DNA of 64,000 nt from Candidatus Omnitrophota bacterium (GTDB taxonomy: Bacteria; Omnitrophota; Gorgyraeia; Zapsychrales; Zapsychraceae). Position 1 is the first letter of the stretch. Each line of letters starts with the position of its first letter. The stretch lies in contig JAGOSC010000003.1 in the NCBI GenBank assembly GCA_018062515.1, positions 14,495 through 78,494 on the forward strand, in the 5' to 3' direction. The notes under the pieces are model-generated. The model saw only the letters and a program-made list of their open reading frames with translations, did not search any database and had not been told where the DNA came from. Below, one piece after another: positions 4,488-64,000 of the stretch. Position numbers and translations under genes: made by a program.

Positions 4488-4493
4488 AGAATG

Positions 4494-10625: not shown

Positions 10626-10631
10626 ATTCTT

Positions 10632-17034: not shown

Positions 17035-18802
17035 GGTGCGCGTTTTACCTGAAGAAATCATTGCCAAAATCGCGGCGGGCGAAGTGATCGACCGTCCCGC
17101 CTCGGTGATTAAAGAATTGTTAGAAAATTCGATTGATTCCGGCGCGGACAGAATTGAACTCAACGTCAAAGAGGCTGGTAAAACATCGATCATCATTAAA
17201 GACAATGGCTGCGGCATCAGCCGTGAAGATTTAGAAACCATTTTTCAGCGTCACGCGACAAGTAAGATTAAAACCATCGACGATCTTTTTAATATTTTTT
17301 CTTTGGGTTTCCGTGGAGAAGCCTTATACAGCATTGCCGCCGTTTCCGATATTATCCTACAAAGCAAGACCAATGAACAAGATGAAGGTTGGCAAATTCA
17401 CACCCGCGGCGGACAAAAACAAAATATCAAGCCGTGCGCTTTTAATGAGCATGGAACCCATATTGAAATCAAAGAACTCTTTTTTAATACCCCGGCGAGA
17501 AAAAAATTTCTAAAAACTGATACATCTGAATTTCATCAGATTCTGAGCACGTTTATTCCGTATACGCTGCTTCATCCGCACATCCGTTTTAAATTGTCTC
17601 ATCAACAACGTGATATCCTTGATTTGGCTTCCATCAGAGATTTAAAAAGCCGTGTGGCTCACGTATTGAATTTAAAAGAAGAACATTTGCTGGACGTCAC
17701 CAGAAATTTCCCGGAACAAAACATGGAAATGCGATTAATCATGGGCGATATTAATATCAAACGCGCCCGACGTGATTTGCAATATATTTTTGTAAACGGA
17801 CGTCCTGTTTCTAATAAGAATATCGCGTATCATTTAAATCAAATCTACCGGCTCATTCTTCCACCGGAATCAGCTCCATTCTTTATTCTTTATCTCACTC
17901 TTCCGCCGTCAGACGTAGATGTGAATATACATCCGACGAAGCGTGAGGTAAAAATAAGACAAGAACGCGAAATCTGTTCACTTTTGCGTAAAATGGGCGA
18001 AGAAACATTGATGGGCTCTTCAGGATTTAAACAAGCCTCTTTCCCGAAAGAGAAAACAATATTTGAGGCTTCTCGTCCATATAATGATTCCTCGTCTTAT
18101 GAAGCCAACTCACAAACATTATTTGAGAAAAATAGTTCGAATACCTACGAGGCCGTGAATAAAGATTATGCCTATCCACGGGCCAATGAACCGCAGGCCT
18201 TTTATCTTCCAACTGATCGTCCGTTGTTAGATGAAAATATTCTAAGCAAACTGGAAAGCGCGCGTTATATCGGCGCTTTTATGCATAAATTTTTATTATT
18301 TGAATCGAATAAGGATTTATTGGTTGTGGATCAACATGCGGCGGCCGAGCGCATCACTTATGAAAAATTGATACGTCATATGGACAAGGGCGACGTCGAG
18401 ATTCAGCCCTTATTGAGCCCCGTTTTGGTGAGCGTATCTCCGCAAGAACTGATTATTTACGAAGAAATTCAAGATGAATTTAAAAAGGTTGGCTTAGAAA
18501 GTTCATTATTCGACGCACAAACCATCGCCGTTCATACTCAACCTTTGCTTTTGCGGGATGTCGAACAAACCGTGCGTTATCTGCTCGCTGGTGACAAAAT
18601 CACCAACCGTGATCATGATCAAATCGCCCGTCGAGCTTGCCGTTCCTCCATTATGTCCGGCGACAAACTTAAACCTAATCAGGCTGAATTCTTGCGCGAA
18701 GAATTGTTACAATGTTTAGACCCTTTCACTTGCCCGCATGGAAGGCCCACCGTTATTGAATTGACCGAGAATTTTTTCGATCAACAGTTTCTAAGAACCT
18801 AA
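17027..18802 (+). CDS. mutL: DNA mismatch repair protein MutL
   Basis: GHKL ATPase motifs ELLENSIDSGA, DNGCGI, GFRGEAL; C-terminal dimerisation region. Its start overlaps mutS by 8 nt. Confidence 0.9.
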   Translation: MNKVRVLPEEIIAKIAAGEVIDRPASVIKELLENSIDSGADRIELNVKEAGKTSIIIKDNGCGISREDLETIFQRHATSKIKTIDDLFNIFSLGFRGEALYSIAAVSDIILQSKTNEQDEGWQIHTRGGQKQNIKPCAFNEHGTHIEIKELFFNTPARKKFLKTDTSEFHQILSTFIPYTLLHPHIRFKLSHQQRDILDLASIRDLKSRVAHVLNLKEEHLLDVTRNFPEQNMEMRLIMGDINIKRARRDLQYIFVNGRPVSNKNIAYHLNQIYRLILPPESAPFFILYLTLPPSDVDVNIHPTKREVKIRQEREICSLLRKMGEETLMGSSGFKQASFPKEKTIFEASRPYNDSSSYEANSQTLFEKNSSNTYEAVNKDYAYPRANEPQAFYLPTDRPLLDENILSKLESARYIGAFMHKFLLFESNKDLLVVDQHAAAERITYEKLIRHMDKGDVEIQPLLSPVLVSVSPQELIIYEEIQDEFKKVGLESSLFDAQTIAVHTQPLLLRDVEQTVRYLLAGDKITNRDHDQIARRACRSSIMSGDKLKPNQAEFLREELLQCLDPFTCPHGRPTVIELTENFFDQQFLRT

Positions 18803-18955
18803 TTTAAAAATTAATCTCGAATATCGAAGTCCGAAATACGAAACAATTTCTAATTTCCGAATAATTAAACAGGTCAAAAACGTTTTAAACATTAAAACAT
18901 TCTGATTTGAGTTATTGTTTCAAATTTCGATATTCGGATTTCGAAATTTCTTTAA
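18803..18955. terminator. Convergent intergenic spacer rich in TTCGAAAT/CGAATATCGAA palindromic words; candidate bidirectional terminator
   Basis: cgaatatcgaa (18818-18828) is complementary to ttcgatattcg (18925-18935), and tttcgaaa palindromes are present. It lies between the mutL stop and the giant-gene stop. Confidence 0.3.
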
Positions 18956-21900
18956 CTATTTCCAAGCAATTTGCATATCGATCGACGGATAGTTTAATAC
19001 CAGGATGGGTTCGCCATTTTCATCAATCAGAATTTCATTTTCACCTAAATGAATACGGTCATAATATAAATTCGGAATCGACATAAACTTGCGGTTGCCT
19101 TCATCTAAGATACTTTCCTGATAAGTTTTTTCTTCTTCCAAGAAAACGCCCGACGGAATTTTAACCGGCAGCGGTGTGATGGTGATGGGAACCATAAAAA
19201 TATCCATCATTTTCAGTTGTTCGATGAGAAGGTCTTCCTGATCAAAAAATTCTAAAGGAACATGAATAGACTTTTCAATCGGAATAATATTGAACTCTAT
19301 GTACGGCCGGCCGGGAACTTCCTCGACGGGTTCTGGAGGTAAATATTGAGATAAAAAGTTTAAGTATTTGATCGTATACATGTGATCTGGTATTGCTGTC
19401 AACGGAACTTCCAGGAATAAAGGATACGGAAGTTGTGTGGGTTTATAGTCCAACGTTATGACGATCGGCATGACCTTTGGAATGTAAACTGGCCTAATAA
19501 TATACTTTTCTCCAAAAACAAAATTCGTTTTAAACGGGAGTGGATCCCAAATATATGGGACAAGGTCAAAGGTTTGAGATATCTGTACACTAATTGAATT
19601 CACAATGTATTGAAGATCCTGCACCTCATACTCACTTTGTGTATTATTTGAGGATAAAGAAATATTGCTTTGATTTGACCGGCCATATTCTTTCGTCATT
19701 TCGTCAGTAAATTCTGTTTTTCCTTCTTGGCTGTATAATTTTTCTTCTCCAGGTGAATTTTTACCTCTCGGGGTAATTTCGCCCATTCTTGTTAAAAATG
19801 CATCGATCATATGATCAGCTGGATGAGAAAGGCCAAATATACTCATCAAATAAGCTTTGTTCGCCCCTCTTTGATTATTATTTTTTATATACAAAAGTAT
19901 AGGCCATGGAGCATTACCGCGATCATCAAAATATTCTTCGTAATTAACGACATATCGAAAATCCCAACGATTATCCGCCCGATATTTTTGCTGAGCTAAT
20001 CGCCGATCATTCATTGGTCTTTCGTTTTCATTCACGACCAGAGCCCGATCGTTCATCAAGGCAAAAACATCAGCCCATTCAGGATTATTTAACCGGTCTT
20101 TCATATATTGTTGCCATGTTTCGCGCTTATCTAATTTAAACCGCTGGACGATTTGTTCAATGTAACGCATATCTTTTTCTCTGACTTTTTGATCATAAAA
20201 GTTTCTCCACGCAGCCGTTTTTTCAATATTACTTTCTTCCATTTCCGGCTCTCCGCGGGTTAAATCAAGTTTTAGAGCTAAAAAAGCTTGATCATCATTG
20301 CCGTCGACGCTGTCCCCGGTGTTAGTCGCTGCATAGAAAACAGCGCTTTTACGTCCATATCCCTTACCTCTTTCAGATTCACGGACAGCTTGAACCACAA
20401 TATTCTGATTCTGACGGACATCCTTCATACGCTGCAGGACAATGACAACGTTGGCCCGTATAGAAGCGGCCAATTTATTCATGTACTCGATAAGGAAATC
20501 ATATACCAACTCAATATAATTAATGATCCTGAAAAGAATATCAAAAATACTATTCAAGAATTGTTTACCTTTTGCATGTGAAATAACCAGCGGCACATCA
20601 GCGAATTCTTTATTTACATCGATAAAATCATTGATTCGGTAAATTTCTTTTTCTATTGAACGATGAGCAATCATCGATTCCACATTCCATTCCGGCATGC
20701 CCAACGGTGTGTATTTTTTTATGTCAATCGACGGGCTATTTTGTTCCACATATAAAAACAGATAGCTTAACCGCTTCGTATTTTCTTTTTTATTGGCGCC
20801 GGATTGATTGTTCATCAAGACAAAAACGACAGCCCATTCAGGATTATTTAACCGGTCTTTCATATATTGCTGCCATGTTTCGCGCTTATCTAATTTAAAC
20901 CGCTGGACGATTTGTTCAATGTAGCGCATATCTTTTTCTCTGACTTTTTGATCATAAAAATTTCTCCACGCGGAAATCTTTTCAGAATTACTGTCATTCA
21001 TTTCCGGCTCACCGCGGGTTAAATCAAGTTTTAGAGCTAAGAAAGCTTGATCATCATTACCATCGACGCTGTCCCCGGTGTTCGTTGCTGCATAGAACAC
21101 AGCGCTGTATTCTTTTGGATTATTGTTCTGATCCGATGATTCCTCTCTAATTGAAACTGGCAAAGCGATTTGATTCGGATAATTATTTCCGATGGTACGG
21201 AACGGTTTCAAACCGTTCCCTACTGTTCCCGTGACATTAAAAAACAAATCTTCAATTAATCGGGTTAAATATTCAATCCAAAAATCTAATAACGTTTTTC
21301 TCTTAACTTTTGATTCAGGGATGGCATATTCCGTCAGTGATGGTGAATGTTTAGCAGGTATTACATTGGCAATATTGATTGTAATAATATTAAGAGGCAC
21401 TTCATGGAATTCGCCGCTTGCCTGAATTTCTTTTTCAATCGCCGGTTGTCCGCTTATTTTTAAACTGTCTTTAACAATCATCGGTTTATCCGCATACATC
21501 GGCACAGTGATTTCTTCTATATTAGATTCCAACAATTTATTCGCCTCATTTAACAATTCATTCATTTGTCGATTATCATTCAACATATCATTAACCAATG
21601 ATTTTAATTCCTTAACTTTATTTGGATCTTTCGACGGTGTTTGTTCTTTCAGTAAGTTGAAAACAATCGCCCAAGCCGGATTATTTAATCGGTCCTTCTT
21701 ATATTGCTGCCATGTTTCGCGTTGATCTAATTTAAATCGTTGGGCAATTTGCTCAATATAACGCATATCCTTCTCGGCGATTTTCTTATCGTAGAAATTT
21801 CTCCACGCGGCCGCTTTGTCTGGTGTTGTTTCAAACATTTCCGGCTCACCACGGGTTAAATCAAGCATCTTGGCTAATTGCGCTTGATCATCACTGCCGC

Positions 21901-27900: not shown

Positions 27901-30900
27901 TAATACCAAACTTTTGATATAGAGCCATGCCGTAATAAGAGTCAATATTTGTCATACGGAAAGCGCCATCCGCATATTCACGTAGGCGATTCATAGCGCC
28001 GGGTTCCGGTGTCGCCGCGTTACCGTCGGAGGCTATCCCTTCATGCATCTCCCCAGTCGTTTCTGTAATCATTTGGATAGGTTCGCCAACTGGAACATTC
28101 TTGTTAGCTTCGAGTGTCATGTAACTCAAATCCGCAGGCGCTGTCGTAAATACGTACAAATGCGCTTGATTAATCATCGTCTTCACTTGAAGCCCGGCGC
28201 CGGCCGCCCAGCCACCTGAACCCATCGGCATAAGCACAACCAATTCACCATCTTTAAACCCTTTTATGGTAAACGATTTACCTTCTTTAAGCGCTGTCCT
28301 GCCAGCTGAATCTCCTTTATCTTTATCAAAATTATTTGGATCATATACTTCACCCGTTTCGGAATTTGTGACTTCATAACCACTCATGATTAAATCTTCC
28401 AACAATTGACGTACAATTTCCAAACCGCATGCCGAGTAACCTGAAAGGACCCATTCATATTTGGTTTTGTCAGCATGGCCGATTTGTAAATTCTCTTCCG
28501 GATTTTCGGCCACTAATTTCTCGACCTCTTCCAAAGCATGCTTATAACTCTTAAATTTGTCGATCAAAGTTCCAATTCCACCGGCACGCTCAATGTTATC
28601 TGCTTTGTGTTTCATAATCGGACCTGAGAAAACCAGGCCTTTCAGCTTCTTAATTGCTGCTTCGAATTTTGCTTCACTTAAACCACCTAATGGTTCTCCG
28701 CTCAATATTTCTTTAAATACATCTCTGGCGGCAAGTTCCTTATAGGTATTAACAAACCACTGATAGCCTTTCTTCTCATAAATTTCTATAACCGCACGTA
28801 CAGCCGTAACCGTGGCCAATCCATGATTACCAGTCGAAACGGCAATAACTTGTTTCGGAATTCTTCCTAAAAGAATGCGGATAAAAACTTCTACTGGCGC
28901 GCGATTTTTGAATGATCCGGTACGGTATAGCCATTCAAATAATTCGACAACAAAACCACTTGTTTCGTCTTTAAATTTCACTTCGACAGGTCGGCCAACA
29001 ATGTCGGATAGAAAATCGTTCATGCCTTTTATTGTGTAAAAATGTGTTACGACTTTAGAAACCATGCCGAATATACGCTGAAGTATTAAGGAAAGTCTAA
29101 CTTTCGCAAGTGTGATACCGCCTTCTTCTCTTCTAGCCTTAGCTTCAGCATGCGATAACGGAGTTAATTCAACATAATCAATTCCTTCTGGTAATTTTGT
29201 CTTTGCTCGACGAATGATATGACGGATGAATAATCCGGCGATAAGCGCTGTTCCAATAATAACAATACCAATAATAATTGTTTCGAAGCTGATCGTAGTT
29301 TTGGCAATCACATCAGAAAGGCTTTGAGCTTGAATACCGACGGCAGCTGAGAGTGATGCCGTCATTGTCGTGAAGAATATAACGAGAGAAATTAATTTAG
29401 ATCCACTATCATTTGATTCGCTATCGGTGGAGGCGTTGAGATCGGCTTCATTTTTGATTGAATCTTCAATAGGTGTTTGCTCAACTTTGCGTGTGCCTTT
29501 GAACACCATCATGCCCAATGGAGGCAATGTCATCGAAATGGAATTTTCACGATCATTGTATGGGATTTTTTCGGAATGTTGTCCTAACTTATTACCTATG
29601 TCACTGCCGCCGTATTTGGCAGAATCACTGTCTAAAATTGGTTCGAATTGACCAGCAAACGGTACACCGACGCGGTAATCGTTATGTACCGTCGGAGTTA
29701 AATTCGCGACAAACACAATCACTTCATCCGGATTATCACCTTTACGGCCAAAACTAATTACACTATGGTCATTATCATTAGCGATAAACTCATATCCGGC
29801 GTAATTCGAATCATATTGGTGAAGGGCTTGCTCATTCTTATATGCACGATTTAGATCGCTGAACCATTGTTGAACGCCGGCATGCAATGGATATTGCGTT
29901 AAGTTGAAATCGATACCTTGGTTATGATTCCATTCGGAATATTGGCCGAATTCTCCGCCCATAAATATTAATTTCTTACCCAACATGGCAAACATTAAAC
30001 CAAATAAAAGTCTTAAGTTCGCAAACCGCTGCCATTCGTCGCCGGGCATTTTGCTGAGTAGTGAAGCTTTCATGTGAACCACTTCATCATGCGACAAGGC
30101 CAGCACATATTTTTCGCCGGTCATGTAGGTAAAGTAGAAGGTCAGATCATTGATGTGATATTTGCGATATATCGAATCACGTTTGAAGAATTTAAGAATA
30201 TCATTCATCCATCCCATGGCCCATTTCAGGTCAAAGCCCAAAGCTTTACTATTATTTGACGCAGTGGATTCAGTAACGCCTGGCCAAGACGTTGATTCTT
30301 CGGCGATCATTAAGACACCCGGGAATTCTTTGTGAACCGTATCATTCAATAGTCTTAAGAAGCGGACAGCCTCGAGATTTTCATTTCCGCCATAAATATT
30401 CGGTTCCCATTCTCCAGCGTTTCGGCCATAATCCAGATGAATCATTGAGGAAACAGCATCGATGCGCATACCGTCGATGTGATAATATTCCAACCAGAAA
30501 TGGACATTGCTTAATAAGAAACTCATCACTTCATGACGTCCATAATTGAAGATCAATGTGCCCCAATCCGGATGTTCACCCTTCGATTTAGAATCATGAC
30601 TATAAAGTTCAGTACCATCGAAGCGGGCTAATCCATGAGCATCTTTCGGGAAATGCGCCGGAACCCAATCAATAATGACGCCAATGCCGGCTTGATGAAG
30701 TTGATCAACCAAATATTTGAAATCATCCGGCGTTCCGTAACGTGATGTCGGAGCGAAATAATTGCTGACTTGATATCCCCATGACGGATAATAATTGTGT
30801 TCGAATACAGGCATCATCTCGACATGGGTAAAGCCCATGGCTTTTACATATGCAACCAGTTCAGCGGCCAATTCACGGTACGTTAAGAATCCTGTTTCTC

Positions 30901-51900: not shown

Positions 51901-54900
51901 CAATCTTGTTGAATGTAATTCCGCCGCGTCTATAGTTGAACTTATTGCCGTTGACATCGGTATAAATGCCGCCGTTCTTAAGCACATTGAAGCGTCGGGT
52001 ATTTTCCAAGTTTTGTTTTTCACGTTTAACATCTTCTTCCATTTGTTTAAGCCCGGCGATGATAACAATTCTTTCTAAACGTCCATCCTTATGCGCGATG
52101 AGGAATTCCATTTCATTCTTGGAACTGGTGAATTCAATATCCATGCGAAGGGCTTTTAGCTCACGTAAGCGGATCTTTTCATCTTTTGTTAAAGTACGTT
52201 CTTTTTTCGTTTGCTCTAATTGAACCTTTTCCTTCAAATCGTCTTTTAAATTCATATAGTATTCATAGTTTTCTTCGCCGGGCTTCACTTCAGTCTTTTG
52301 CACTTCTTCGAGAGTTAACTTTTTCGCCTTTGAGTTATATTTGGCAAATTCATTAGAAATAATCTTAACTTCTTTACCGATTTCATGAGCGATGCGATTT
52401 AAATCAGCCTTCATTAATATAGTTAAAGCTGTTTCATCCGTACCTTTCTCCTCGTCGGATAATTGATCATAAAGTTGCGCAAACATATTCGTTGGGTCAA
52501 TGATATTTCCGTTAACCTTGACTCTAAAATCAATACCTGCATTGCCGCTGTTTCCAATAATTTCACCAACTTTAATTCGATCGCCGATCATGACATCAGC
52601 ACCAGATAAATCTCCGTACACGATGCTGATTTTATTTCCTTCATAATCGATGGCGGTCTCAACTTCAATTTCAAACTTGCCGTTCTCTTTATCTTGTCCG
52701 ACATGGATGACTTCGCCGGTCATATTTGACGGGATTTCTGTATCGTCGGCGACAGCGATGGTGATTCGGTCATTATCTAATGTGAAACGTCCGTCTTTAT
52801 ACGGGCTATTATGGATAAGTTTAGATCGTAATAAAGCCATTCGAAGCGCTGCGAATTTCTTCACATCAGCTATGACAGTTGGTTTTGTAATTTGATTATT
52901 TTCAATTTTCGTTGTTAAGAAATTATCGCCGGCCACGACGCTGATGAAATATTGAGCGGTTGAGCCTAAGGCTTGATTGCCCACGGCAGTTTTAGATCCA
53001 ATACCGGTTTCAACGCCTTTAAGGGTGGCTTGCGGGAAGCTGCCGTCTTCATTCATCATTAATTCAAGTTGAGGTCGGTATAGTTTGACCCGTTCAATTT
53101 GCACATTAGCCTCGTCGAGTAAACCATATTGTCTGAAATATGGAATGAACATTTTGAATACGCCGATCGCTTGGGCGGTTTCTTTAGTAAATCCTATTCT
53201 TCGTTTACTTTCATCCGTGACGTCATTACGCTTGGTCATGGCGGTCTTCAAGTCAACTAAATCAAACAAGCTGACTTCTTTTCCTTTATACATAACGTTA
53301 ACGCCGAATGTCTCGACGATTTTGTTGAGAAGTTTGGCGAATTCCCGGGCGGCTTGCTCATTGGTCATGCCTTTTGTCTTGATAAAGGTGTCAGCATATT
53401 TTTGTGGGCCCATGGCTTCTATCAATTGCATTTGAACATCCGACGTGAATCCTTCAGCATCTTTTTGATTTTTAAATAATCCGGTTTCTTTATCTCTCAA
53501 GGTTTTAATAAAGCTTAAGCTTCTGCGGCTAGCTTCCCGGGAGTCGTCATCATCATTTTGCTCAGCATAATTATTGAAGAAGGCATATACAATCAAATTG
53601 GTTCTTAAGTCTTCAGCATTAGGAGTAATTCCTCTTTCTGAAAGCGGCAAGATATATTCCGGAAGGACTTTACCAAGTTTCAAATCAGTGTCTCCGAACC
53701 GTTTAACTGTCAGTGTTGTTTTTTGGTCTTGTACATCCAGCATCAAATCTTTAATATCTTCCAACATACGATGATAGCGGTAATCATGCGTGGACTTCTC
53801 ATAAGTCATAATTGCCAAACCAATCGCCGCGGTGGTAGGTACATGCGGATTTCCATGAGGTTCACCGGTATTGACGTCGATATCGCGCGCGAATCCGCTG
53901 AAGGAAACGCCACGGCCTTCGACTTGTTTCTTATAGCTAATATTATAATAATAATTAAGTGTGCGTTTGATGCTCTTGATATCGTTACTGATTAAATTCT
54001 TGATAATATCCTCCGCGTGATCCATACCAGTTCCGATTGAATATGAACCAGGCATTTCTTCGTCATAAGATTTAGGCGTTCCCGTCGGTGTGTTATACGC
54101 GCCAAAATCACTACCCATGTTCGTAGAAACTCCACTTTCTTTCAGCGCGAGCTTCATATTTTCCAAAGTTTCCATTTCTTGATGGATCTTCTTCAACTGA
54201 CTCTTAATTCCGTTGCGGGTAAATATAATCACTCTCTTATGTTCTGTGCCGTCGGCGTCAATGGTTGTTGCCAGTGTGACCGGAACTTGTATGGTACGGC
54301 CTTTGCCGTCGTCGATCTCTACGGATTGCACTGTTTTAAATAGGGCATTATATTGTTCTTGGGTATATGTAACGGCTTTATCATTGAATATGTTTGAGCG
54401 AATATCATAGGCTACAATGTTTTTATTATCTTCAATGCGATTCAAATGCTTGAGAAGATCCTTTTCCCAACCTAAAGTAAATGAATAGAACGGTACACCG
54501 ATACTAAATCTGAGCCCGGTCGGCGCTTCTTTAAATGGATAGCTCAATTTGTTATCACCGAATAGATCGGAAGCCCAATTAATCACGGATCGGCCATCTA
54601 ATCCAATGTTGACCACGTTCAAAATCTTATCGAGATAGGTAGCTTTCTGGGTCAATAAATCGTCGAATCTCTGATAATGAATTTGATGGCCAAGGAATAT
54701 GGATGATAAGGCCTCACCAATATTGACGCTGCCATTATATTTGATAATGCGCTGGCTTAAAATATTGACCAAGGTTGGATTTTTAGGTATGTCATACACT
54801 GGTATAATTTCTGTCCAATATTTTGGATCTATTTTTGGCGTCGATGGATCAACACCATTCAATCCAAACGATGATGGGTTGGTATTAGGATCTTGGAATT

Positions 54901-57900
54901 CTTTAGGTTGAGCGGATTTAATATTTTTCTCGGTGTTCAAACTTTCGGCTGCTCCGAGGAAAGAGGCGGCGTTCGACAATAGCCCCATGATAAAGCCGAT
55001 GTTTCTTTCGGCTGGAAGGCTCTTTAGATAACTAAACATACGCTCAGCATCTTCCGGTGTGAAATCACTTTCTAGTCTTTTCTCGGCTCTTCGTTTGTAT
55101 TCATCCTTGGCGCTCTGTGGAAGGGCGTTCCAACGTTTTGTGAATTCCCGGTCAAATTTATTTTGACTGAGCGTCTTTAAAGTCGGATCATTTTTCAATA
55201 ATTCTTCATTGAATAGGTATTTCTTATAGAACCGTATTTGCTCATTCTTCGTCGGGGCTTTAGGTGCTTTTTCCGGTTGAGTCATCATATCAAATACTAT
55301 TCCAGTCCCTGCCGTTAACAGCTTGAGCGGCGGGAAGAATCCTGTAAAGATATCGGCAAAGCCCGTGAAGAGATTAAAGACGCTTCTTTTCTCTAAAGTC
55401 TTTAACTGCTCTTTCTGTGCTTCTACTCTATTTTCTGCTTGCATCAAGCCCATAATGGCCTCGACTTCCTCGGCCTTATGCGTGTTCATGCCGTAAATAA
55501 TCCAGCTTTGATTGCCTTCTTTATCTTTTTCATCTTCGAATACTGAAATTCTTGGCAAAGGAGTTTGGCTGTATAACTTATTCACTGTTTTACGCCATTG
55601 CCCGTTGACATCCTTAACTTTCGTCACGATGACCGGATGTCCGGCTGATTTGTCTTCAAACTCTCTGGTATCGTCGTCGACCAAGAATTTCACGGCTTCA
55701 CTAATCATGCCGTCTTTGGTATTTACGATGACCGCTGAATATGGGTCTTTGCTTGGCGGCAACATGGCCTTTGAAAATTCAGGCGTTTCGCTGATTAATT
55801 CATCGCGTTCTTCAAGATCTTGGGTCTCTAATATATCTAATAATCGTATCAATACTTGTCGGTCACGAAGAACCGTTTCAGCCTTTTGAAGTTTAAGCTG
55901 CTGAGCTTTTTCACCGGAGCGTAGAATACCGCTGATCGGATTTCCTTGAAGGTCAAAACCTTGAACAACAGCAATCATGTCTTTTCCGAATTCTTCAGCT
56001 TCTCTGATTTGTTCATCGGTTAATTTAACGTAATATGGTGAAGTCGTAATATCTTCAAACGGATGTTTTCCTGCCTCAAGCTTGGCTTTATAAATCGTAA
56101 TGGATGCGTTTTCTTTGAATTTGTCAAATGATGGCTGATCATAGAGTGGCATGACGATCTCGTTGTAAGTATCCGGATTCATTGATATGACAAGATACAT
56201 TGGGCTGTCAGCACCGTTTTGTGTCATCAATTCATCAGCCGCTATTCCGTTGATCGACGCTGTGACGGTTCGTTCCAAAGTCTTTTGATCACCATCAATG
56301 TGAAGATTTTTCAATATTTCTTGGCGTTCTTCATCGCTTTGAGCACCGACGATATCTTTAGAAATTTTATTAAACTCTTTGTATAAATCGATCGTTTCAT
56401 CGTCTTGTTGTTTATCTTGATCGAGAGAAATTACCGGTTTGTATGGCTGGACCTTGATGTCTTTAGCTTCGTCGATCAATGTGCTCAACTCAGGCAATGT
56501 TCTGGCATTTTTCAATTTAATTTGAGCAGATTGTTTGGTGACATCAAAATCGTATCGTTCGGTTAATTTGATTCTTGTATCAATCAATGATTTTGTTTCG
56601 TAATGATTGATTGTTAATGATGTTGGGGCTTTCCCTAATTCTTTAAATTTGGTCGGCATTGGCGGAAGATAATTGTTTACTTCTTCTTTCTCGACGTTAG
56701 CTGGCACTGAAGTAATCGCCTTGAATTCACTCATGTCAGATGAAATTGTTTCATCGGTATCACCAAATTCAGTTTTTGTGGTGCTTTCTTCACTTGATGT
56801 ACCTTCTTCAACGTTCGTATCATTGCTAACAAAACTATGTCGTTGGCCGCCTCGGTGTTGTTTCTTCATAGCCATAAGCTTTTGATCCAATTCGCTCTTT
56901 TCGTAAATGCTCATGACATCAGACACATATTTACGTGTATCTTTGATTTCCGGAATTGAACCAGCAGCATTGTTAACCGCGTCTTCTCCGGCGTGATATG
57001 AGGCTAAAGCAAATTCTTTGCTATCAAATGACTTGAATTGTTTAGCGAATTGATATGAGCCAGCCAAAACGTTGATCGCTGGATCAAAAATGTCTGATTC
57101 TTTCCAATCCATCTTCAATTCTTGTGCAATTTTCATAAATTGTTCCGGAGTAATTTGCATTAATCCTCGGGCATTATTTTCAGTAGAGATTTTGTTTGGA
57201 TCAAAACCGCTTTCCTTAATAATGATCGCTTGAATCATTTGTCTGAAACTATCGCCATTTTTGAATTGCTTATTGAGGTTAAGGTCATCCATGTCAAAGA
57301 CCTTGTTAATGGAGCTTGAAATCTCAGCGTTTAAGCTCATTAAATCTGAAGACATAACCGTGTATTTAGCTAACATTTCAGTCACTACGTTTCTGTCGAA
57401 GTTTTCAGCTGGATTTGGTCCGACACCGTCTTTATGGAATTTTTCCATAGTAGACTTGGCCCAAGAAGGCATAACATTTGGCTGATCAGCATTAAACCAT
57501 TGACGTGAACCCATATCCAAGTGAAGTTGAGTCTTATAGAATCCAACCCCTTTAAATCCAGCTTGTAAGCCCATTTCCAAGAACAAGGCTTTTTCTTGAT
57601 CAGTTAAGGATTGTGTTTGGAAGTCAAATGCTCGGCCGGTATGATGTTCTTTTCCATCAACGCCTTCTGTATCTGTAGTTAATCTTGTTCCACTGCGATG
57701 TTCATCTTTGCCGTCTGGACCTTCATGATTAATTTGAACGAACTTGCCGCTCACCGTTGTAAACGCTCGGCCTAATTCATCGGCGGTCAAGGCAGCATGC
57801 GCATCAACGTCTGTTCCCGGCGCCGTCATGTCGGAAAGATCATAATGTTCAAGGTCATTATTTGAAGCCGTCCATTTACCTTCAACTGAATGCTGAAGCA

Positions 57901-60900
57901 TGTTATTAAATAAACCTACCTGGGTGGTGTATCCAGTCTTTGGTGATGGATTTTGAGGAATTGTATCGCTGCCGACGAAAAGGCTTAATGATCCAAATAC
58001 AATCGGAAGAAGATAAACAGGTAGAAGAAGTTTTTTCAGAGGCTTTTCAATGGATCTTAGCGCTGTCATGATCTTTTTGAAGCTAAATTTCTCAAAGAAT
58101 TTAATCGCTATTATTACGGCAAAAACAATACTAGCGACCATATATAGAGAAATTACAGCCCACTGTAATGGTCCGATATTATTCGCAGCCGTATCTTGAG
58201 CCATGGCCATTCCTGGTAACATGGTTACGGCGGCCAATACAGCTGCGAATTTCAATGTTTTCTTAAATAATGCGGAGACAGCGTCAGTTGTAGTTATTAC
58301 GATTCCCCAACCGTTGTTAACTTTAGTTTCTAAAGAACGACTGTCGCTGTCTCCGATATTATTAGTTGAGATTTCGGTAGATACTCTTGGTTGAATACTG
58401 AGGAACTTCACCGCTTTCCAAAGCATGCTGGACAAGCCGGCGAACACTTTTTTGACCAACGAGGTCAAGTTCATTCCAAGTGTCGGTAAGGCCATTTTTA
58501 CTGTAGATATGGTCCATTGTGTTGGTAATGAGATATAACCTGATTTTGTTGGTTGTGGTTTCACGGCAGCTGGCAATGAAACATTGACTTTGAGGGATTT
58601 GAACAAAATGCGTAATCTTAATGCTGGGTTTAGTGTTAAGAACGACCATTTCGCACCTCCGGAAATAGTAAAGGCTTGTTTGAAAATACGTACAAAAGTA
58701 CGTAATCCAAACAAGCCTTTATTTTGGTTGATGATCTTAGATTGAGTTTTTACTTGAGATGACGGTCCTCGGATTTGGCCATATTTGACTGACAATAAGG
58801 CTATGAGAACCAAAGATACAGCAATAGCGATAAGCCCGATGATAACTGGGCTTACGGATGTGGTACCGGCAAAAGCAATAATACTACCGGCATAGCGTAG
58901 GTTGGATGATCTACCAATAGACAAAGTCTCAGATTCGCGTACCGTATCAGTTTTATCTTCTACCGGCACACCTGAGGCTTTTCGATTTCTCTTATTAAGT
59001 AGATTTTCTGAGCGCGCAATTCTTGAATCTTGCTCAGTATATAAGCGAACAAAGCTTACATCATTAACGTTCTTTCTGCCTTTGGCGGCGTACTCAGAGC
59101 TAATGACTTTGCTTTGACTTATTTCTTCTTTAATTGTAGATACTGTTTCGTTCACAGTACCAGAACTGAATCCGCTCTTGTCGTTTCGAGCAGGATTTGT
59201 AAAACGAGTATTCTTGATTTGCTCTATAGCCTTAGCTACTCGCACCCCAAGAATTTCACTCTCCCCATTTACATTGCTGTAAGCGGATCGAATGGCTTCA
59301 ACCAATCTTCCGATTAGGTTGATGTTTTTTCCAATAATGTCTGCAGCATCTTTCGATCCTACAGTGTTGCCAGTAACAGCTTTCACTGCTACAAGAACTA
59401 ATCCAAAGCCCAATGCTTCAGATGAAACTACTGTGTAACCTACTTCTTCTTTACTACCATCTTCTCTATTTACATAGAGACGCACTCCAACAACTTTGTC
59501 CTTTCCAACTTCATTACTGAAGAGGGATTGAACTGCTTCTTCAGCCAATCTTCCGATTAAGCTGACAACTACTTCTACAATAATGTCTGTATCGGCTTTC
59601 GCTTCTACAGTGTTTCCAGTAATAGCTTTCACTATTACAAGAACTAATCCGAAGCCCAATGCTCCAGATAAAACTTTTTCGGTCGTTAAACCAGCTTTAG
59701 TTTCTTCAGCTTTATTTCCTACAACTGTGTAACCATTTACTTCTTTATTACCATCTTGTGTAAGACGTACTACAACAACTTTGCTCTCTCTAACTTCATT
59801 ACTGAAGTCGGATTGAACCGCTTCTTCAGCCAATCTTCCGATTAAGCTGATAACTACTTCTACAATAATGTCTGTATTGGCTTTCGCTTCTACAGTCGTG
59901 CTAGCAATAGATTGCTCTATCGCATGAGCTGATCCGGAAACTAATTTTCCAGATAAAGTTTCTTCAGCCTTACGGCTAGCTGTAACTTCATTAGCTTTTC
60001 CGGATTCTTCAACAACCTCATCCGATTCGGTTTTTGCTTCACTTGCTTGTCCGTGCGCTTTCGCACCAGAACCACTACTTCTACTATAATTGGTACCATT
60101 TTCAGCTAAGACTAACTGAACTAGTACTTCATACTGTTCTTGAATCTTTCGAACATTCATCAAGAATTCTTGAACAGGTCCTGCTTTGACTTTTCGAACT
60201 TCTACAACATTTACTACGATTGCTGTATTTTCTTTCTTTTCAGTGTTGCCACTGGTTTTGCCTTCTTTAGTTGTACCTACAGCAGATACGACTTTAGAAC
60301 CTTCGGCTTGTTCATTTACTACTTTGTTACTTGCTTCTTTACTTCTATCTCCTTCACTTACGTGAACAAGATATACTACTTCAACTTCATTCTTTCTGTC
60401 TGCGTTTCCGTAAACGAATCGAACTGCTTCAGCCAATCTTTCGATTAAGCTGATTACTTCTTGTTTTACGTTGTTTCTAACTCGAGCAACTGATAAAACT
60501 GCTGCTAGAACTAATCCGAAACCTAATGTTTCAGATGAAGTTTTTTCAGCCTTGCGGCCAGCTTTAACTTCGTCAGCTTTATTACCTACTTCTTTGTTAC
60601 TTACTTCAACTTCTTCTACAGTATTTAAAACATTTACAACTTTAATAATTACTTCGTTTGTCCGCGCTACTAGCATTTGCACTGCCTGGCCTATTGCGGA
60701 ATAGGCGGCAGCTAAGAATGCTGTCGGGCTAAGGCCAGAAGTAAGGCCCCGGGTCCTTGATTCTATTGATATTGCAACTAACCATGATTTACTTGCTTTT
60801 AATTCTTCTGAAATCTGTGGACCTACCTTAATATAGGCCTTGGATGGTCCAAACTCGTTTTGATATTTGACCATAGCAATCTTGGTCTTATTTCCACCAT

Positions 60901-63900
60901 TCGAACCTGTTCCGCCAGCACCACCTGAAGGCGATGGTTCGGCGGTAGGCAATTCTGCTGGGGTCGAAGGAACAACCGGTAAGACTGCATTTTGTTGTCG
61001 GCCGCGACCAGGTATGGCTGATTGATTTTGATCTGGATAATCGGAGGTATCTGCTTTGGCAAAACTATAGCCCATTTCAAAGAGATAATCTTGGGCGGTT
61101 TCTAAAATCTTAGGAGCCTGGCTTAACAACATACTTGGTATGTTGATAGTTGTCAGCGGAATATTAGGAATGACCGGTGTGGCCGGCATAATAACGTTTG
61201 GAACTGGGCTAGGCGCCACTGGTTGATTTGGAGTAGCTCGATCTAACCCTTCTTGACCATCAATTTCGGCATCTTGGGAATGCAATCTTGCTTTAAATTT
61301 ATTCTTATCTTCTGTAAGTTCATTATTCTCAGATATTTCTGAACCTTCAGGCGGTCCACGATCGGTAAGTTGTTTTGCTTCCTCAGCCGGCGTTAATTGA
61401 TCAGATTCTAACTTGATGTTGCCTTGGAGCTGATCATTCATCAAATTCATAATTCCACTCGGCGGAATATTTCCAGGCTGATACATAGCCGGAATATTGA
61501 GCTTATCTTGAGTTACAGTAGCATCGATGTATTCTTTAGCTGAGGTTTGATTAGCTATAGCGGAGATAGTAATAGCGCCCGCAATAAATAACTTACCGGC
61601 CCAGCTGCGTAATCGGGCAAACTTTGTTTTTTCACTGACTTTTTCTTTATTTACGGTTGAAGTTTTAGGCGTATCAAGCTGCGCTATTTCAAACATTTTA
61701 CTATTAAACTGTTTCATAGCCGCCTTAATCGGTGCTTCGCGCTGATCAGATGAGAGATTTTCAACCATTCCATTGGCTTTTAACTGCATTTCAGAAACAA
61801 TGGCAAAGGCTAACTCAGAGGTTTCAAACCGAATACCCTTGTTTAAATTCTCACTATTAAGATCTTCAGCCAATTTATCCATCAAATTGGATAATAATTT
61901 AAATTTATTTTGATCAATCGATTTTGTCTTATATTTCCCTGCTTCGTCTTTTTCTAGTAGAAATGTGAAAACTGAGAATAGAACTTGGGCTGTTTCCAGG
62001 GAGAATTTATTGCTTTCATCCTCAAATGTACGGGCAAAATAATCTAAGACAAAGTTCATAACATTCTTGTCTTCAAAGACGGATGAATTAATAGTCAGTG
62101 TTTTTCCATCTTCACTCTTCACTGGAAGAAGCGGGCTGTCACGTTCAATGCTGATAGTCTTGAAAGCCGCTAAAGCCTTGGCTAACTTTTCACTATATGT
62201 AACAGCTTGTTGCAATTTAACAACCGTTTTGATCCTTGTTTCCGCATCCGTACTTTCATTTTCCACGACCACCGGCACATTCCCATCCGGCCCTTGATGA
62301 ATGAGGATTTCGGACTTCTGCAATATTTCGTCTTTGTGATCATTCACCACTTTTTCAAATTCTTCTTTACTTAACGCGTGAACAAGTGATTTTAACCACG
62401 TGTTTCCTAACACTTTCCATATCCTGGCCGACTCCATGGTGGCCTGCCGCATATTATTGGCAATAAATTCCTCTGAGCTTTGAGAATCATCCGGTAAAGC
62501 TTTCCAATAGTCGGCTAATACCAACAATTCATCCGCATTATCGATCGCATCCGAAAGGGTCAATTCGATACCTGAATTCTTCCATATCTTCATAATATCC
62601 GTCATTCGAGGTAGCGCTGAACGGACGGTGGCAAGTCTCGTGTTAAATTCTTCCTGCGTAAAATCAATGCGTCCGGAAATTAGCCTTAATGAATCATTTA
62701 AGACTTGATCAACCTTTTGCTGTGAGGCATTGTCTTCAAGTAAAGCCAGAAGATTTTCTTCCTCTTGAGTTCTCTTTTTCTTGTTTTGCAAATCTGTCTT
62801 GACCGGCTCCAGCATTTCAGCTGAACTTATATTAATAAGGGAAGGCAGGTCCTTTTCCAATTGAGGCCGTAAATGAACATCCACAAAATCGGCACCCAAA
62901 CTCTTCTTCAATTCTTGATACTCAAAGTTTTCTTTATCAGAGGCTAAAAGATTATTAATCGTTTTTAACTGTTTCTTATAAAGCGCTTCTTCTTTCTTGA
63001 GTTTTTTCTCTGCTAATTCAGTCAGCTCAAAACCACTGACAAAGGCATGTTTCATTAATTCTGCGGTCAGCGTGAGGGTTAATTTTTCACGGTCTTCCAT
63101 ATCGGCCGACGGATCAGCTGCCAGACGATTTGCCCTTATGATCGGCGATTCAATCATGGCAATAAAAATATTAACCGGCAATTTGGCTAATACCTCAGTG
63201 TTCATATTAGCTTCAATAAATTTATTGATCTTGACCGCCAATTCCATTTGGTTCAAGTCGGCTGATAATTTGAATATTTCCAGCGCTTTAACCATTTCAA
63301 TCGGGGTTAAGCGACTTTCGACTTCATTCTTATTAAGGGTAGTGATCAGCGTTTGAATATCCGCAACCGTCAGTTCTTTGGTTTTCTTTAAGATTTGTTG
63401 AACCAATGAATCCTGTGATTTTTGTAATTTTCTCACAGCTTTATTCAATGATTTTATTGAAGCATCCGTCATGAAACCTAAACGAATGACATCTTTAATC
63501 ATATAACTATATTTTTTCCATTGCGCGGGGATCTTTTTACCATAAGGCATTTTGGCGATGTCTTCATCTTTCAAAGATTCACGCCGTTCATGTTCCAATT
63601 CAAGCGCTAAGAATTTCGTTCTCTTGGCTTCATCCGCCTCAGATAATAGCCGATCTCTGATTCGTAAGATTTCATTTTGCTTTCCTTGTATCGCTTCCGT
63701 AGTATCATTAAGCGTATGAATCAAGGTCACTAATTCCTCAATATTCACATGTCCTTTAAAGGCACCCTCAGCTACATCGCTAACCAAATAATCAAAGAAC
63801 GGCAATATGGTCGGTTGGGATTCAATCTTTTTAACGAGCGTTTTAAGAGATTCTATGTTTTTGTCAAAGCCCAATCCAATTAAGACCCGAATATATCCAA

Positions 63901-64000: not shown

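What the first reader, a model, noticed from the sequence alone, without database searches (positions are those of the whole stretch)
18956..64000. Single uninterrupted ORF of more than 45 kb (>15,010 codons) running off the window: a giant gene
In AT-rich DNA a stop-free frame of this length cannot arise by chance. The frame also carries more than a dozen recognisable enzyme domains in register, so it is coding. The 5' end lies beyond position 64000, so the true protein is longer. The gene ends convergently 153 nt from mutL. Giant genes of this scale are rare and have been reported mainly in a few lineages (e.g. Omnitrophota, some Chlorobi). This one's module content (see other findings) is unusual.
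Basis: seen in the sequence. Interest (0 to 1): 0.95.

Follow-up and report, generated by a model that had tools for sequence, protein, structure and literature searches.

The report
Giant membrane multi-enzyme gene of Omnitrophota
The 45-kb stop-free frame is real: it is the 3' part of a giant gene from an uncultivated Omnitrophota bacterium, a phylum already known for such genes, so this is a new example of a known oddity whose notable extras are almost no cysteine and a fungal-type glucan synthase module.

Summary
The minus strand is stop-free from 18959 to 64000 (15,014 codons). A TAG stop sits at 18956-18958, 153 nt from convergent mutL. The chance probability is about 1e-463.

Codon usage matches the neighbouring genes along the whole frame. 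An independent assembly is 100% identical over the 3' end. MutS is 100% identical to a 'Candidatus Omnitrophica' MAG protein. A relative (MutS 85% identical) has the same mutS-mutL synteny followed by a convergent gene called at 32,543 aa, whose C-terminus is homologous to this one.

This is therefore a member of the published class of Omnitrophota giant, multi-pass-membrane, multi-enzyme proteins. The visible part carries about 40 hydrophobic helices in clusters. Between them lie:
- an intact SLT lytic transglycosylase
- a degenerate M23 domain
- a complete FKS-type GT48 glucan synthase module with its catalytic motifs
- DUF218
- a catalytically intact GH13-GH77-GlgB alpha-glucan cassette
- a PLP enzyme domain
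- C-terminal repeats

About 79% of the chain has no family match. I find 8 enzyme-type domains, not 'more than a dozen'.

Two things stand out. There is 1 cysteine in 15,014 residues, where about 189 are expected. The GT48 module recurs in other giant ORFs. Function is inferred, not shown.

The parts
18956..64000 (-). Giant ORF, 3' part: 15,014 sense codons plus a TAG stop at 18956-18958. The N-terminus lies beyond the window.
59126..60934 (-). N-proximal internal repeats (aa 1023-1625, 28-32% identical units), each containing a hydrophobic 'GALGFGLVLVxVKA' segment
57974..59674 (-). Hydrophobic (TM-like) cluster A, aa 1443-2009. It includes a signal-peptide-like segment KKTLKFAAVLAAVTMLPGMAMA|Q.
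56960..57244 (-). SLT lytic transglycosylase domain (aa 2253-2347). The catalytic E-S, GLMQ and AxYxxG motifs are present.
   Evidence: Pfam PF01464, E 4e-21
52493..52765 (-). Peptidase M23/LytM-like domain (aa 3746-3836). HxxxD is present and the final HxH is absent, so it is probably non-catalytic.
   Evidence: 28-31 bits against a cut-off of 28.7
44981..56623 (-). Conserved 'supermodule' (aa 2460-6340), colinear at 25-28% identity with a 5,601-aa protein (P0137). It includes the conserved pre-GT48 domain aa 4431-4935, which has no known fold.
47666..49297 (-). Hydrophobic cluster B, aa 4902-5445 (about 5 helices), before the GT domain
45146..47404 (-). GT48 (FKS1/callose-synthase-like) 1,3-beta-glucan synthase module (aa 5533-6285). 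It comprises a GT domain with KPMNQN, DAN, ED and GKGRE motifs, followed by its own ~10-helix bundle (aa 5982-6402 = 44795-46057).
44069..44572 (-). DUF218 domain (aa 6477-6644)
   Evidence: 29-31 bits against a cut-off of 27.6
38888..39106 (-). ACT-like domain (aa 8299-8371), below Pfam threshold
   Evidence: E 7e-4, 19.8 bits against a cut-off of 27
37571..38293 (-). Cluster of short repeated motifs TKVN[DG]WGI / TKVxTIGESEKTE (aa 8570-8810), flanked by hydrophobic helices. Further copies lie at 58199-58354, 43406-43648 and 27194-27493.
35921..36376 (-). Hydrophobic cluster G, aa 9209-9360 (about 6 helices), before the alpha-glucan cassette
33479..34774 (-). GH13 alpha-amylase-family domain (aa 9743-10174). 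Conserved regions I-IV are intact.
31808..33274 (-). GH77 4-alpha-glucanotransferase (MalQ/amylomaltase), full length (aa 10243-10731). RLDH, AEDLG and GTHDN motifs are intact.
   Evidence: E 2e-162; PDB 1tz7, 1e-119
29462..31399 (-). GlgB branching enzyme (CBM48 + GH13 + C-terminal domain; aa 10868-11513). All four GH13 regions are intact and it contains no Cys.
   Evidence: PDB 5gqw, 2e-198; NF003811, 731 bits
27848..28936 (-). PLP-dependent (PALP, Ser/Thr-dehydratase-like) domain (aa 11689-12051) with the GSFKNR lysine motif. It holds the protein's only cysteine, at codon 28427-28429.
20042..22024 (-). C-terminal ~280-aa repeats (aa 13993-14653, 49-74% identical) inside a TM-free tail of 2,745 aa. 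They are homologous to the C-terminus of the 32,543-aa orthologue.
18959..19468 (-). Conserved extreme C-terminus (last 170 aa), 56-61% identical to the orthologues in L052 and L053
18803..18955 (.). Convergent intergenic spacer with a long inverted repeat, a possible bidirectional terminator
   Evidence: -36.4 kcal/mol, z -3.5
14431..18802 (+). mutS-mutL, a conserved syntenic anchor next to the giant gene
5573..7048 (-). PilQ-type secretin. With the pilin-like gene at 12368-12892 it forms the type IV pilus / T2SS-type neighbourhood typical of these loci.
   Evidence: literature

Best explanation
This is the C-terminal 15,014 codons of one genuine chromosomal giant gene of an uncultivated Omnitrophota bacterium. 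The full gene is probably 20,000-33,000 codons. It belongs to the published class of Omnitrophota giant proteins: multi-pass membrane chains strung with enzymes, called 'Archaeovorin-type' by West-Roberts 2023 and 'multi-enzyme metabolic cluster' by Nielsen & Lui 2026.

Shown here: the chain alternates clusters of hydrophobic helices with soluble modules. In order these are:
- an active-looking SLT lytic transglycosylase and a degenerate LytM/M23 domain, in a 2,900-aa helix-free stretch
- a complete FKS-type GT48 glucan synthase (GT domain plus its own helix bundle) with the catalytic motifs preserved
- DUF218
- a catalytically intact GH13 amylase, GH77 amylomaltase and GlgB cassette
- a PLP-dependent enzyme domain
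- a repeat-bearing tail

Inferred mechanism: the protein is threaded back and forth through the inner membrane, so that wall-cutting and wall-binding modules face outward. The GT48 module makes a glucan from UDP-glucose on the cytoplasmic face and extrudes it. The alpha-glucan cassette disproportionates and branches maltodextrins into a glycogen-like polymer, which needs no ADP-glucose. Together this forms an envelope-anchored enzyme scaffold, used for the cell-to-cell (epibiotic or predatory) lifestyle of the phylum and for handling scavenged sugars.

The near-total exclusion of cysteine implies that the chain, or most of it, must tolerate export or an extracytoplasmic environment.
For: Real, single reading frame:
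- stop-free at a chance of about 1e-463
- host-like codon usage in frame along the whole length
- no nucleotide tandem repeats
- the independent Logan assembly is 100% identical over window 8664-20100

Lineage and orthology:
- MutS is 100% identical to an Omnitrophica MAG protein
- the relative has the same synteny with a 32,543-aa convergent gene
- 47% identity over 1,077 aa and 56% over the last 170 aa

Architecture:
- about 40 hydrophobic segments in clusters
- domain hits
- catalytic motifs read in the sequence. The FKS1 motif identities come from review PMC12715860.

Recurrence of the GT48 module in giant frames:
- 64 representative clusters at E<=1e-30, many of 2-8 kaa
- in 4 of 6 metagenome loci the frame is open across the whole 13-21 kb

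Context: PilQ and pilin genes lie nearby, matching.

Cys exclusion.

Fit to the published class.

That MalQ plus GlgB can build glycogen from maltodextrins is established E. coli biochemistry (my own knowledge).
Against: - No expression, proteomic or topology data exist for this protein.
- My helix calls come from a crude hydropathy scan, and orientations are not resolved. For example, the positive-inside rule around aa 11592 and 12251 gives conflicting sides unless an extra helix is assumed.
- About 79% of residues have no family match.
- The SecA_DEAD, C39/S8, HEAT, GT5 and NUDIX domains described as typical for Archaeovorins were not found in the visible part.
- GlgB, MalQ and PALP are cytoplasmic enzymes elsewhere, which sits awkwardly with a chain-wide signature of export (Cys exclusion).
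- Read-level support is missing for 20.1-64 kb.
- The whole chain could be cut into pieces after synthesis.
Confidence: 0.8

Rival explanations
1. Polyprotein reading. The ORF is translated as one chain, or partly from internal starts, but it functions as many separate proteins. They would be released by signal peptidase or another protease at recurring junction modules, so the 'giant protein' never exists as a mature entity.
For: The enzyme modules are complete, with intact catalytic motifs, and are separated by linkers and helix clusters. A ~60-aa junction module recurs three times before hydrophobic helices. One copy looks like a Sec signal peptide with an AMA|Q cleavage site. West-Roberts 2023 also raise cleavage as a possibility.
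Against: No protease domain (C39, S8) is visible in this part. The junction motif is absent from 150 related GT48-bearing proteins. For V. archaeovorus, peptides map to a giant ORF, but their coverage does not settle whether it is processed. Nothing here tests cleavage.
Confidence: 0.25
2. Assembly or consensus artefact. The 45-kb frame is stitched from separate loci, or in-frame stops were erased by consensus polishing.
For: The window comes from a metagenome-assembled contig. The only independent assembly I could retrieve covers just the last 1.1 kb of the ORF, and it breaks at an internal repeat.
Against: - A chimera would not keep one frame open for 15,014 codons.
- Codon usage and GC are uniform and host-like.
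- An orthologue of 32,543 aa sits at the same syntenic place on an 872-kb contig, with a homologous C-terminus.
- Colinear similarity to independent proteins extends over aa 2460-6340.
- Four other contigs show the same module inside frames that are open end to end.
- No tandem nucleotide repeats were found.
Confidence: 0.03
3. A giant surface adhesin or 'coat' protein whose embedded enzyme-like domains serve only as carbohydrate-binding modules, comparable to the giant repeat adhesins of Chlorobium chlorochromatii or RTX adhesins.
For: The C-terminal tail is TM-free and repetitive. Cysteine exclusion is typical of exported giant adhesins (my own knowledge). Adhesion is one published proposal for Omnitrophota giant ORFs.
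Against: All catalytic residues of GH13, GH77, GlgB, SLT and GT48 are retained, which argues for catalysis rather than binding alone. The protein has about 40 hydrophobic helices and few repeats, unlike repeat adhesins.
Confidence: 0.1
4. A megasynthase (NRPS/PKS), or a polyvalent protein of a mobile element or phage.
For: Only the size points this way.
Against: There are no condensation, adenylation, KS, AT or carrier domains, and no methylase or helicase domains, in Pfam or NCBIfam scans of the whole chain. The gene lies in a conserved housekeeping neighbourhood of que genes, murI, mutS and mutL.
Confidence: 0.01

Closest known systems
'Archaeovorin-type' giant proteins of Omnitrophota (West-Roberts et al. 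2023, bioRxiv 10.1101/2023.11.21.568195). Type example: the 39,678-aa protein of Velamenicoccus archaeovorus LiM.
   Same: Same phylum. A single ORF of tens of kb with many transmembrane helices. A mix of glycosyltransferase, glycoside-hydrolase, peptidase and SLT domains in largely unannotated sequence. Secretin and pilus genes nearby.
   Different: The visible 15,014 aa lack the SecA_DEAD, HEAT, GT5/GT1, methyltransferase and NUDIX domains listed as typical. The N-terminal C39/S8 region cannot be seen. The GT48, GH77, GlgB and GH13 modules and the cysteine exclusion are not mentioned in that paper.
'Multi-enzyme metabolic cluster' class of Omnitrophota long proteins (Nielsen & Lui 2026, bioRxiv 10.64898/2026.06.07.730766)
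   Same: Many distinct Pfam families tile one membrane-anchored polypeptide with none dominating. It includes a sugar-metabolism module. TM density is of the order of one helix per few hundred residues. There are no recent nucleotide tandem repeats.
   Different: Their sugar module centres on starch synthase, GT1 and phosphoglucomutase. Here it is amylase, amylomaltase and branching enzyme plus a GT48 synthase, none of which is named in their text.
Fungal FKS1 / plant callose synthase (GT48 1,3-beta-glucan synthases; PDB 7xe4, 8jzn)
   Same: The Pfam Glucan_synthase profile is matched over positions 4-744 of 819, and there is a PDB FKS1 hit. The KPxNQN, DAN and ED motifs are conserved. The layout is the same: a helix cluster, then the GT domain, then a ~10-helix bundle.
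   Different: Identity to eukaryotic enzymes is only ~25-29%. The module is embedded in a giant bacterial chain. No Rho1-type partner or FKS1_dom1 accessory domain was detected. The product and linkage are untested.
Giant repeat adhesins (Chlorobium chlorochromatii 36,805-aa protein; RTX/Bap-type adhesins)
   Same: Size class, association with a symbiotic lifestyle, and cysteine poverty (my own knowledge).
   Different: Those are mostly tandem Ig-like, VCBS or beta-helix repeats without membrane helices or metabolic enzymes. This protein has few repeats and many helices and enzymes.

Membership tests
Omnitrophota giant ORF (Seymour 2023: ORF >20 kb in an Omnitrophota genome) | Encoded in an Omnitrophota genome | tested here: met
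   MutS is 100% identical to MBP9853429.1 'Candidatus Omnitrophica bacterium'. All named hits among the 120 listed are Omnitrophica/Omnitrophota, apart from one from a hydrothermal vent metagenome. No phylogenomic tree was made.
Omnitrophota giant ORF (Seymour 2023) | Uninterrupted ORF longer than 20 kb | tested here: met
   45,042 nt are visible, open to the window edge.
Archaeovorin-type giant protein (West-Roberts 2023) | Gene >90 kb (>30,000 aa) | tested here: inconclusive
   Only 15,014 codons are visible. The source contig is 81,473 bp, so the gene is probably cut by the contig end. The syntenic orthologue is 32,543 aa.
Archaeovorin-type giant protein | Numerous transmembrane helices | tested here: met
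   51 Kyte-Doolittle windows at or above 1.7, merging to roughly 40 helices in ~9 clusters. The method is crude; no TMHMM or DeepTMHMM was available.
Archaeovorin-type giant protein | Divergent SecA_DEAD / SecA preprotein-binding domain (present in most) | tested here: not met
   No hit in Pfam at E<=0.1 on 1,000-aa pieces, nor in NCBIfam. It may lie in the unseen N-terminal half.
Archaeovorin-type giant protein | N-terminal region with a signal peptide and a C39 or S8 peptidase | not testable with these tools
   The N-terminus is outside the window, and the source contig could not be retrieved.
Archaeovorin-type giant protein | Domain set: glycosyl transferases, glycosyl hydrolases, peptidases, SLT; also methyltransferases, NUDIX and HEAT | tested here: inconclusive
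   GT (GT48), GH (GH13, GH77, GlgB), a peptidase-like domain (M23) and SLT are present. Methyltransferase, NUDIX, HEAT and GT5/GT1 were not found in the visible part.
Archaeovorin-type giant protein | Type II secretion / type IV pilus genes in the neighbourhood | tested here: met
   A PilQ/GspD-type secretin at 5573-7048 and a pilin/pseudopilin-like gene at 12368-12892. A full T2SS operon is not present in the window.
GT48 (FKS/callose synthase) glucan synthase | Match to the family profile above the curated threshold | tested here: met
   PF02364, 94.5 bits against a cut-off of 37.2, covering profile positions 4-744 of 819. PDB FKS1 hit at 1e-11.
GT48 (FKS/callose synthase) glucan synthase | Catalytic ED motif, DAN motif and UDP-Glc-binding K/N (FKS1 E1221-D1222, D1102-A-N1104, K1082, N1085; PMC12715860) | tested here: met
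   VSEDIM at aa 5895, LDANND at 5801 and KPMNQN at 5782. All are conserved in 8 aligned relatives. The correspondence is by motif, not by a structural alignment.
GT48 (FKS/callose synthase) glucan synthase | Makes beta-1,3-glucan from UDP-glucose | not testable with these tools
   This needs biochemistry.
GlgB / GH77 MalQ / GH13 amylase | Family profile match plus the catalytic Asp-Glu-Asp residues | tested here: met
   GlgB: NF003811 at 731 bits on a piece cut at aa 11001, just below that model's 741-bit cut-off. The sibling GlgB models NF008967 (714.5 vs 577) and TIGR01515 (664.7 vs 464) are exceeded, and PDB 5gqw scores 2e-198. GH77: E 2e-162. GH13: E 9e-39. Conserved regions I-IV, and RLDH / AEDLG / GTHDN, were read in the sequence.
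Peptidase M23 (active LytM-type metallopeptidase) | HxxxD and HxH zinc ligands | tested here: not met
   HVGQD is present, but the C-terminal HxH is replaced by GIDFRV. The score sits at the Pfam threshold. I treat it as a degenerate LytM domain.

The most novel reading that the evidence does not exclude
The near-absolute exclusion of cysteine extends to domains that are cytoplasmic enzymes everywhere else (GlgB, MalQ, a PLP enzyme). It recurs in orthologues and in unrelated GT48-bearing giant ORFs. This may mean that these chains are exported essentially whole, so that 'intracellular' sugar metabolism is displayed outside the cell or delivered to a host or prey cell. In addition, the GT48 modules in these bacterial giants may form a prokaryotic sister or source clade of the eukaryotic FKS/callose synthases, whose origin is unexplained.
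Probability: 0.15. Interest if true: 0.7.

Novelty: new member of a known kind. Interest (0 to 1): 0.4.

Why it matters
The giant ORF itself adds one more well-supported example, with a syntenic 32,543-aa orthologue, to a class that is already catalogued in the thousands but has no experimentally understood function.

Three features of this example are concrete and testable:
- The cysteine exclusion (1 in 15,014 residues) is a chain-wide selective signature. It could be checked across all published giants, and it constrains where the protein lives.
- A complete, motif-intact FKS-type GT48 synthase inside bacterial giant proteins offers a tractable module for biochemistry, and a lead on the evolutionary origin of the fungal and plant enzymes.
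- The intact amylase, amylomaltase and branching-enzyme cassette gives a defined activity to assay. That could test the 'prey sugar processing' idea, which so far rests on annotation alone.

Tried and rejected
Searches that found nothing:
- Exact 70-mer from the window end in genome contigs and metagenome contigs: no match, so the contig could not be extended.
- MutL as query for related loci in GTDB genomes: only ~33% identical, unrelated taxa. This spent the last genome scan.
- PDB search of aa 5401-6400 alone: no hit, although the 5,000-aa piece had hit FKS1. This was probably a filter effect.
- Profile of the conserved pre-GT48 domain (aa 4431-4935, alignment A3) against PDB: nothing.
- Finer Pfam and NCBIfam scans on 1,000-aa pieces: no robust new domains.
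- Rfam and tRNA scans of the window: nothing.
- Supplement look-up for Pfam lists in West-Roberts 2023: none held.

Calls that failed or were unusable:
- The 8-sequence GT48 alignment was too diverse for locus finding; a 3-sequence alignment worked.
- AlphaFold2 of the C-terminal 1,200 aa without an alignment: mean pLDDT 30.8, unusable, so no fold search was run.

A misleading negative:
- The search for homologous proteins with the C-terminal 1,514 aa gave no hit, although an orthologue exists. That database evidently does not index such giants, so 'no hit' is not evidence of orphan status.

Ideas rejected:
- Avoidance of stop-adjacent codons as the way the frame stays open: 35.6% of codons are one step from a stop, against 36.3% in the neighbours.
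- NRPS/PKS or a polyvalent mobile-element protein: no such domains, and a housekeeping context.
- Alternative genetic code: irrelevant, because none of the three stop codons occurs.
Full report
**1. The observation**

The longest stop-free stretch in the window is on the minus strand, from 18959 to 64000: 45,042 nt or 15,014 codons. It reaches the window edge. A TAG stop sits at 18956-18958. The next longest open stretch in the window is 2.6 kb. The other five frames of the same DNA contain 602-1,525 stops. From base composition a stop is expected at 6.9% of codons, so the chance of 15,014 stop-free codons is about 1e-463.

The spacer contains a long inverted repeat that folds at -36.4 kcal/mol (z = -3.5). 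It is a plausible two-way terminator.

**2. The frame is coding throughout and belongs to the host**

Codon-position GC has the coding pattern in every 1,000-codon block. In-frame synonymous codon usage correlates with the 18 neighbouring ORFs at r = 0.73-0.86 in every 3,000-codon block, well above the out-of-frame controls. There are no nucleotide tandem repeats apart from one 29-nt trifle.

An independent short-read assembly (Logan, SRR11088468) is 100% identical to window 8664-20100. It stops where a C-terminal repeat begins, which explains why such genes fragment in assemblies.

**3. Whose gene it is**

The window's MutS is 100% identical to MBP9853429.1 from a 'Candidatus Omnitrophica bacterium' MAG, on a contig of 81,473 bp. 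Every named hit among the 120 best is Omnitrophica/Omnitrophota, apart from one from a hydrothermal vent metagenome. I could not retrieve that contig. The rest of the window holds ordinary chromosomal genes:
- rdgB, RNase PH and a queuosine cluster
- murI and an amidase
- a PilQ-type secretin and a pilin-like gene
- rsmB, mutS and mutL

**4. Orthologue**

In GCA_050250375.1 (contig JBFWOS010000003.1, 872 kb; MutS 85% identical) the gene order murI-amidase-secretin...mutS-mutL is the same. mutL is again followed by a convergent gene, called there at 32,543 aa. Its last 2,724 residues align with this protein at 47% identity over 1,077 residues and 56% over the final 170. A second relative (JGI Ga0131077_10000399; MutS 82%) has a homologous C-terminal fragment cut by the contig end.

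The gene is therefore conserved in position, evolves much faster than its neighbours, and is probably about twice as long as the part seen here. With only 17 kb of contig outside the window, the source assembly most likely truncates it. This last point is an inference.

**5. Anatomy**

Residue i corresponds to window position 64000-3(i-1). A hydropathy scan finds 51 windows, merging to roughly 40 helices, grouped in about nine clusters. From the N-terminal to the C-terminal end:
- **aa 1-1400:** unannotated.
- **aa 1023-1625:** repeats.
- **aa 1443-2009:** helix cluster.
- **aa ~2010-4900:** a 2,900-residue helix-free stretch. It holds an SLT domain (2253-2347, E 4e-21) with its catalytic Glu-Ser, GLMQ and AxYxxG motifs. 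It also holds an M23/LytM domain (3746-3836) that keeps HxxxD but lacks HxH.
- **aa 4902-5445:** about five helices.
- **aa 5533-6285:** a GT48 glucan-synthase module followed by its own bundle of about ten helices.
- **aa 6477-6644:** DUF218.
- **aa 8299-8371:** further helices and a weak ACT-like domain.
- **aa 9209-9360:** a six-helix cluster.
- **aa 9743-11513:** GH13 amylase (9743-10174), full-length GH77 amylomaltase (10243-10731, E 2e-162) and GlgB (10868-11513; PDB 2e-198), one after another.
- **aa 11689-12051:** two helices, then a PLP-dependent dehydratase-like domain.
- **aa 12251 onwards:** one helix, then a 2,745-residue tail with ~280-aa repeats.

All three alpha-glucan enzymes keep every catalytic motif. 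These family matches cover only 21% of the chain. I count eight enzyme-type domains, not more than a dozen.

**6. The GT48 module**

This module has the KPMNQN, DAN and ED motifs. In yeast FKS1 these are the UDP-glucose-binding K1082/N1085, the D1102-A-N1104 motif and the essential E1221-D1222 (review PMC12715860). It also has the FKS layout of a helix cluster, a GT domain and a helix bundle.

A full HMMER scan of 1.84 billion representatives found 422 relatives, 64 of them at E<=1e-30. Many are 2-8 kaa long, while proteins of eukaryotic FKS size score only about 1e-15.

In JGI metagenomes, four of six loci carry the module inside a frame that stays open across the whole 13-21 kb fetched. Their flanking domains differ; L056, for example, has methyltransferases. 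One 5,601-aa protein is colinear with residues 2460-6340 here.

So the module is a recurrent, shuffled building block of giant bacterial ORFs. I found no paper in the library that discusses prokaryotic GT48.

**7. Cysteine**

The chain has one cysteine (aa 11858, inside the PLP domain) in 15,014 residues. The 18 neighbouring ORFs have 1.26%, which predicts about 189. The Poisson probability of at most one is about 1e-80. Every other amino acid lies within 0.8-1.26 times the neighbours' frequency, and codons one step from a stop are not avoided. The signal is therefore about the thiol, not about keeping the frame open.

| Sequence | Cys / residues | Source |
|---|---|---|
| This protein | 1 / 15,014 | |
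| Orthologue C-terminus, L052 | 2 / 2,725 | |
| Orthologue C-terminus, L053 | 0 / 775 | |
| Other giant frame, L056 | 2 / 7,209 | |
| Other giant frame, L058 | 1 / 5,756 | |
| Other giant frame, L055 | 8 / 4,374 | |
| Other giant frame, L057 | 23 / 5,009 | |

The neighbours of the two orthologues have 1.04-1.09% cysteine. None of the three key papers mentions cysteine. Cysteine exclusion is a known trait of exported proteins in bacteria that lack disulfide machinery, and of giant adhesins (my own knowledge). It is unexpected that GlgB, MalQ and a PLP enzyme share it.

**8. Comparison with what is known**

Giant ORFs are a documented hallmark of Omnitrophota:
- Seymour 2023 (PMC10066038): ORFs >20 kb occur in most genomes of several classes.
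- West-Roberts 2023: proteins up to 85,804 aa, all full-length ones with many TM helices, most with a SecA_DEAD domain. The 'Archaeovorin' type carries GT, GH, peptidase, SLT and sugar-metabolism domains, with T2SS-like genes nearby.
- Nielsen & Lui 2026: 916 proteins catalogued, 94% membrane-targeted, with a 'multi-enzyme metabolic cluster' class and secretion or pilus genes flanking them.

This gene fits that class in lineage, size, helices, enzyme mosaic and neighbourhood. Several 'typical' domains (SecA_DEAD, HEAT, GT5, NUDIX) are absent from the visible part, and the N-terminus cannot be judged. I therefore file it as a new member of a known kind.

**9. How it most likely works (inference)**

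The chain is woven through the inner membrane. The long helix-free SLT/LytM stretch is most simply placed outside, where it can bind and cut peptidoglycan. The five helices that follow would bring the GT48 catalytic domain to the cytoplasmic face, as in FKS1, from where a glucan is extruded through the module's own helix bundle.

The amylase, amylomaltase and branching-enzyme trio can turn maltodextrins into branched glycogen-like polymer without nucleotide sugars. This fits the published idea that these proteins process sugars taken from a host or prey.

Whether the chain stays whole is open. A ~60-residue junction module occurs at aa 1883, 6785 and 8570, with a consensus of ...RS[LF]xTKVN[DG]WGI...FKKxxKF followed by a hydrophobic helix. 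The first copy resembles a cleavable signal peptide. This leaves room for processing into pieces.

**10. Verdict**

The lineage guess was right. Rarity, domain count and overall interest were overstated. The gene is a new member of a known kind, with three side observations worth a specialist's look: the cysteine exclusion, the bacterial GT48 modules and the junction motif.

Noticed in passing
window 18959-64000 (sole Cys codon 28427-28429); L052 14433-22607; L056; L058: Near-total cysteine exclusion: 1 Cys in 15,014 residues against 1.26% in the neighbouring genes. The pattern is shared by the orthologues (2/2,725 and 0/775) and by other GT48-bearing giant ORFs (2/7,209 and 1/5,756). All other amino acids are at normal frequencies. 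It is not mentioned in the three main papers on these genes.
   Followed up: partly
window 45146-47404 (aa 5533-6285); loci L055-L058; proteins P0124-P0272: A complete FKS/callose-synthase-type GT48 module with the DAN, ED and KPxNQN motifs inside a bacterial protein. It has 422 relatives among 1.84 billion representatives. The best are multi-kaa proteins and score far above the proteins of eukaryotic FKS size. In 4 of 6 metagenome loci it sits in a frame that is open across the whole locus. This is a possible prokaryotic relative of a family regarded as eukaryotic.
   Followed up: partly
window 58199-58354, 43406-43648, 37571-38293, 27194-27493: A short motif family recurs just before hydrophobic helices: RS[LF]xTKVN[DG]WGI (5 copies) and TKVxTIGESEKTE (7 copies), with fewer than 1 expected by chance. 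The copy at aa ~1911-1937 resembles a Sec signal peptide with an AMA|Q site. The motif is absent from 150 related large proteins. Its function is unknown; it could be a junction, an insertion signal or a cleavage signal.
   Followed up: partly
window 49196-50710 (aa 4431-4935): A ~500-residue domain (motif HFLIPNDPRGRDIA) is conserved before the GT48 helix cluster in at least five other large proteins. It has no Pfam, NCBIfam or PDB-sequence relative.
   Followed up: partly
window 18803-18955: The 153-nt spacer between convergent mutL and the giant gene holds a long inverted repeat (fold -36.4 kcal/mol, z -3.5). The simple terminator scan found no canonical terminator there.
   Followed up: partly
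window 52493-52765: The M23/LytM domain lacks the HxH zinc ligands, like the non-catalytic amidase activators EnvC and NlpD. An AmiC-type amidase gene lies in the same window at 4494-5576. A functional link is pure speculation.
   Followed up: no
window 215-3688: A housekeeping block upstream: Ham1/RdgB, RNase PH, then a queuosine-precursor cluster (QueF, a radical-SAM QueE-like gene, QueC, and PTPS/QueD). Several neighbouring ORFs overlap.
   Followed up: partly
window 10632-12257 versus L053 14416-17681: A PMT_2/TPR gene lies upstream of mutS in the window. In the relative L053, PMT_2 and TPR genes lie instead between mutL and the giant-like ORF. This is a local rearrangement next to the giant gene.
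   Followed up: no
window 20042-22024 and L001 end (window 20100): The independent short-read assembly of the same sample breaks exactly inside the C-terminal ~840-nt repeats. The last 54 nt of L001 recur at 20806-20859 with 93% identity. This is a concrete illustration of why giant genes are truncated in MAGs.
   Followed up: yes
The 5.8-billion-protein word-index search returned nothing for the C-terminal 1,514 aa, although a 47%-identical orthologue exists in a public genome. Very long proteins appear not to be indexed there, so negative results for giant-gene segments should not be read as 'orphan'.
   Followed up: yes
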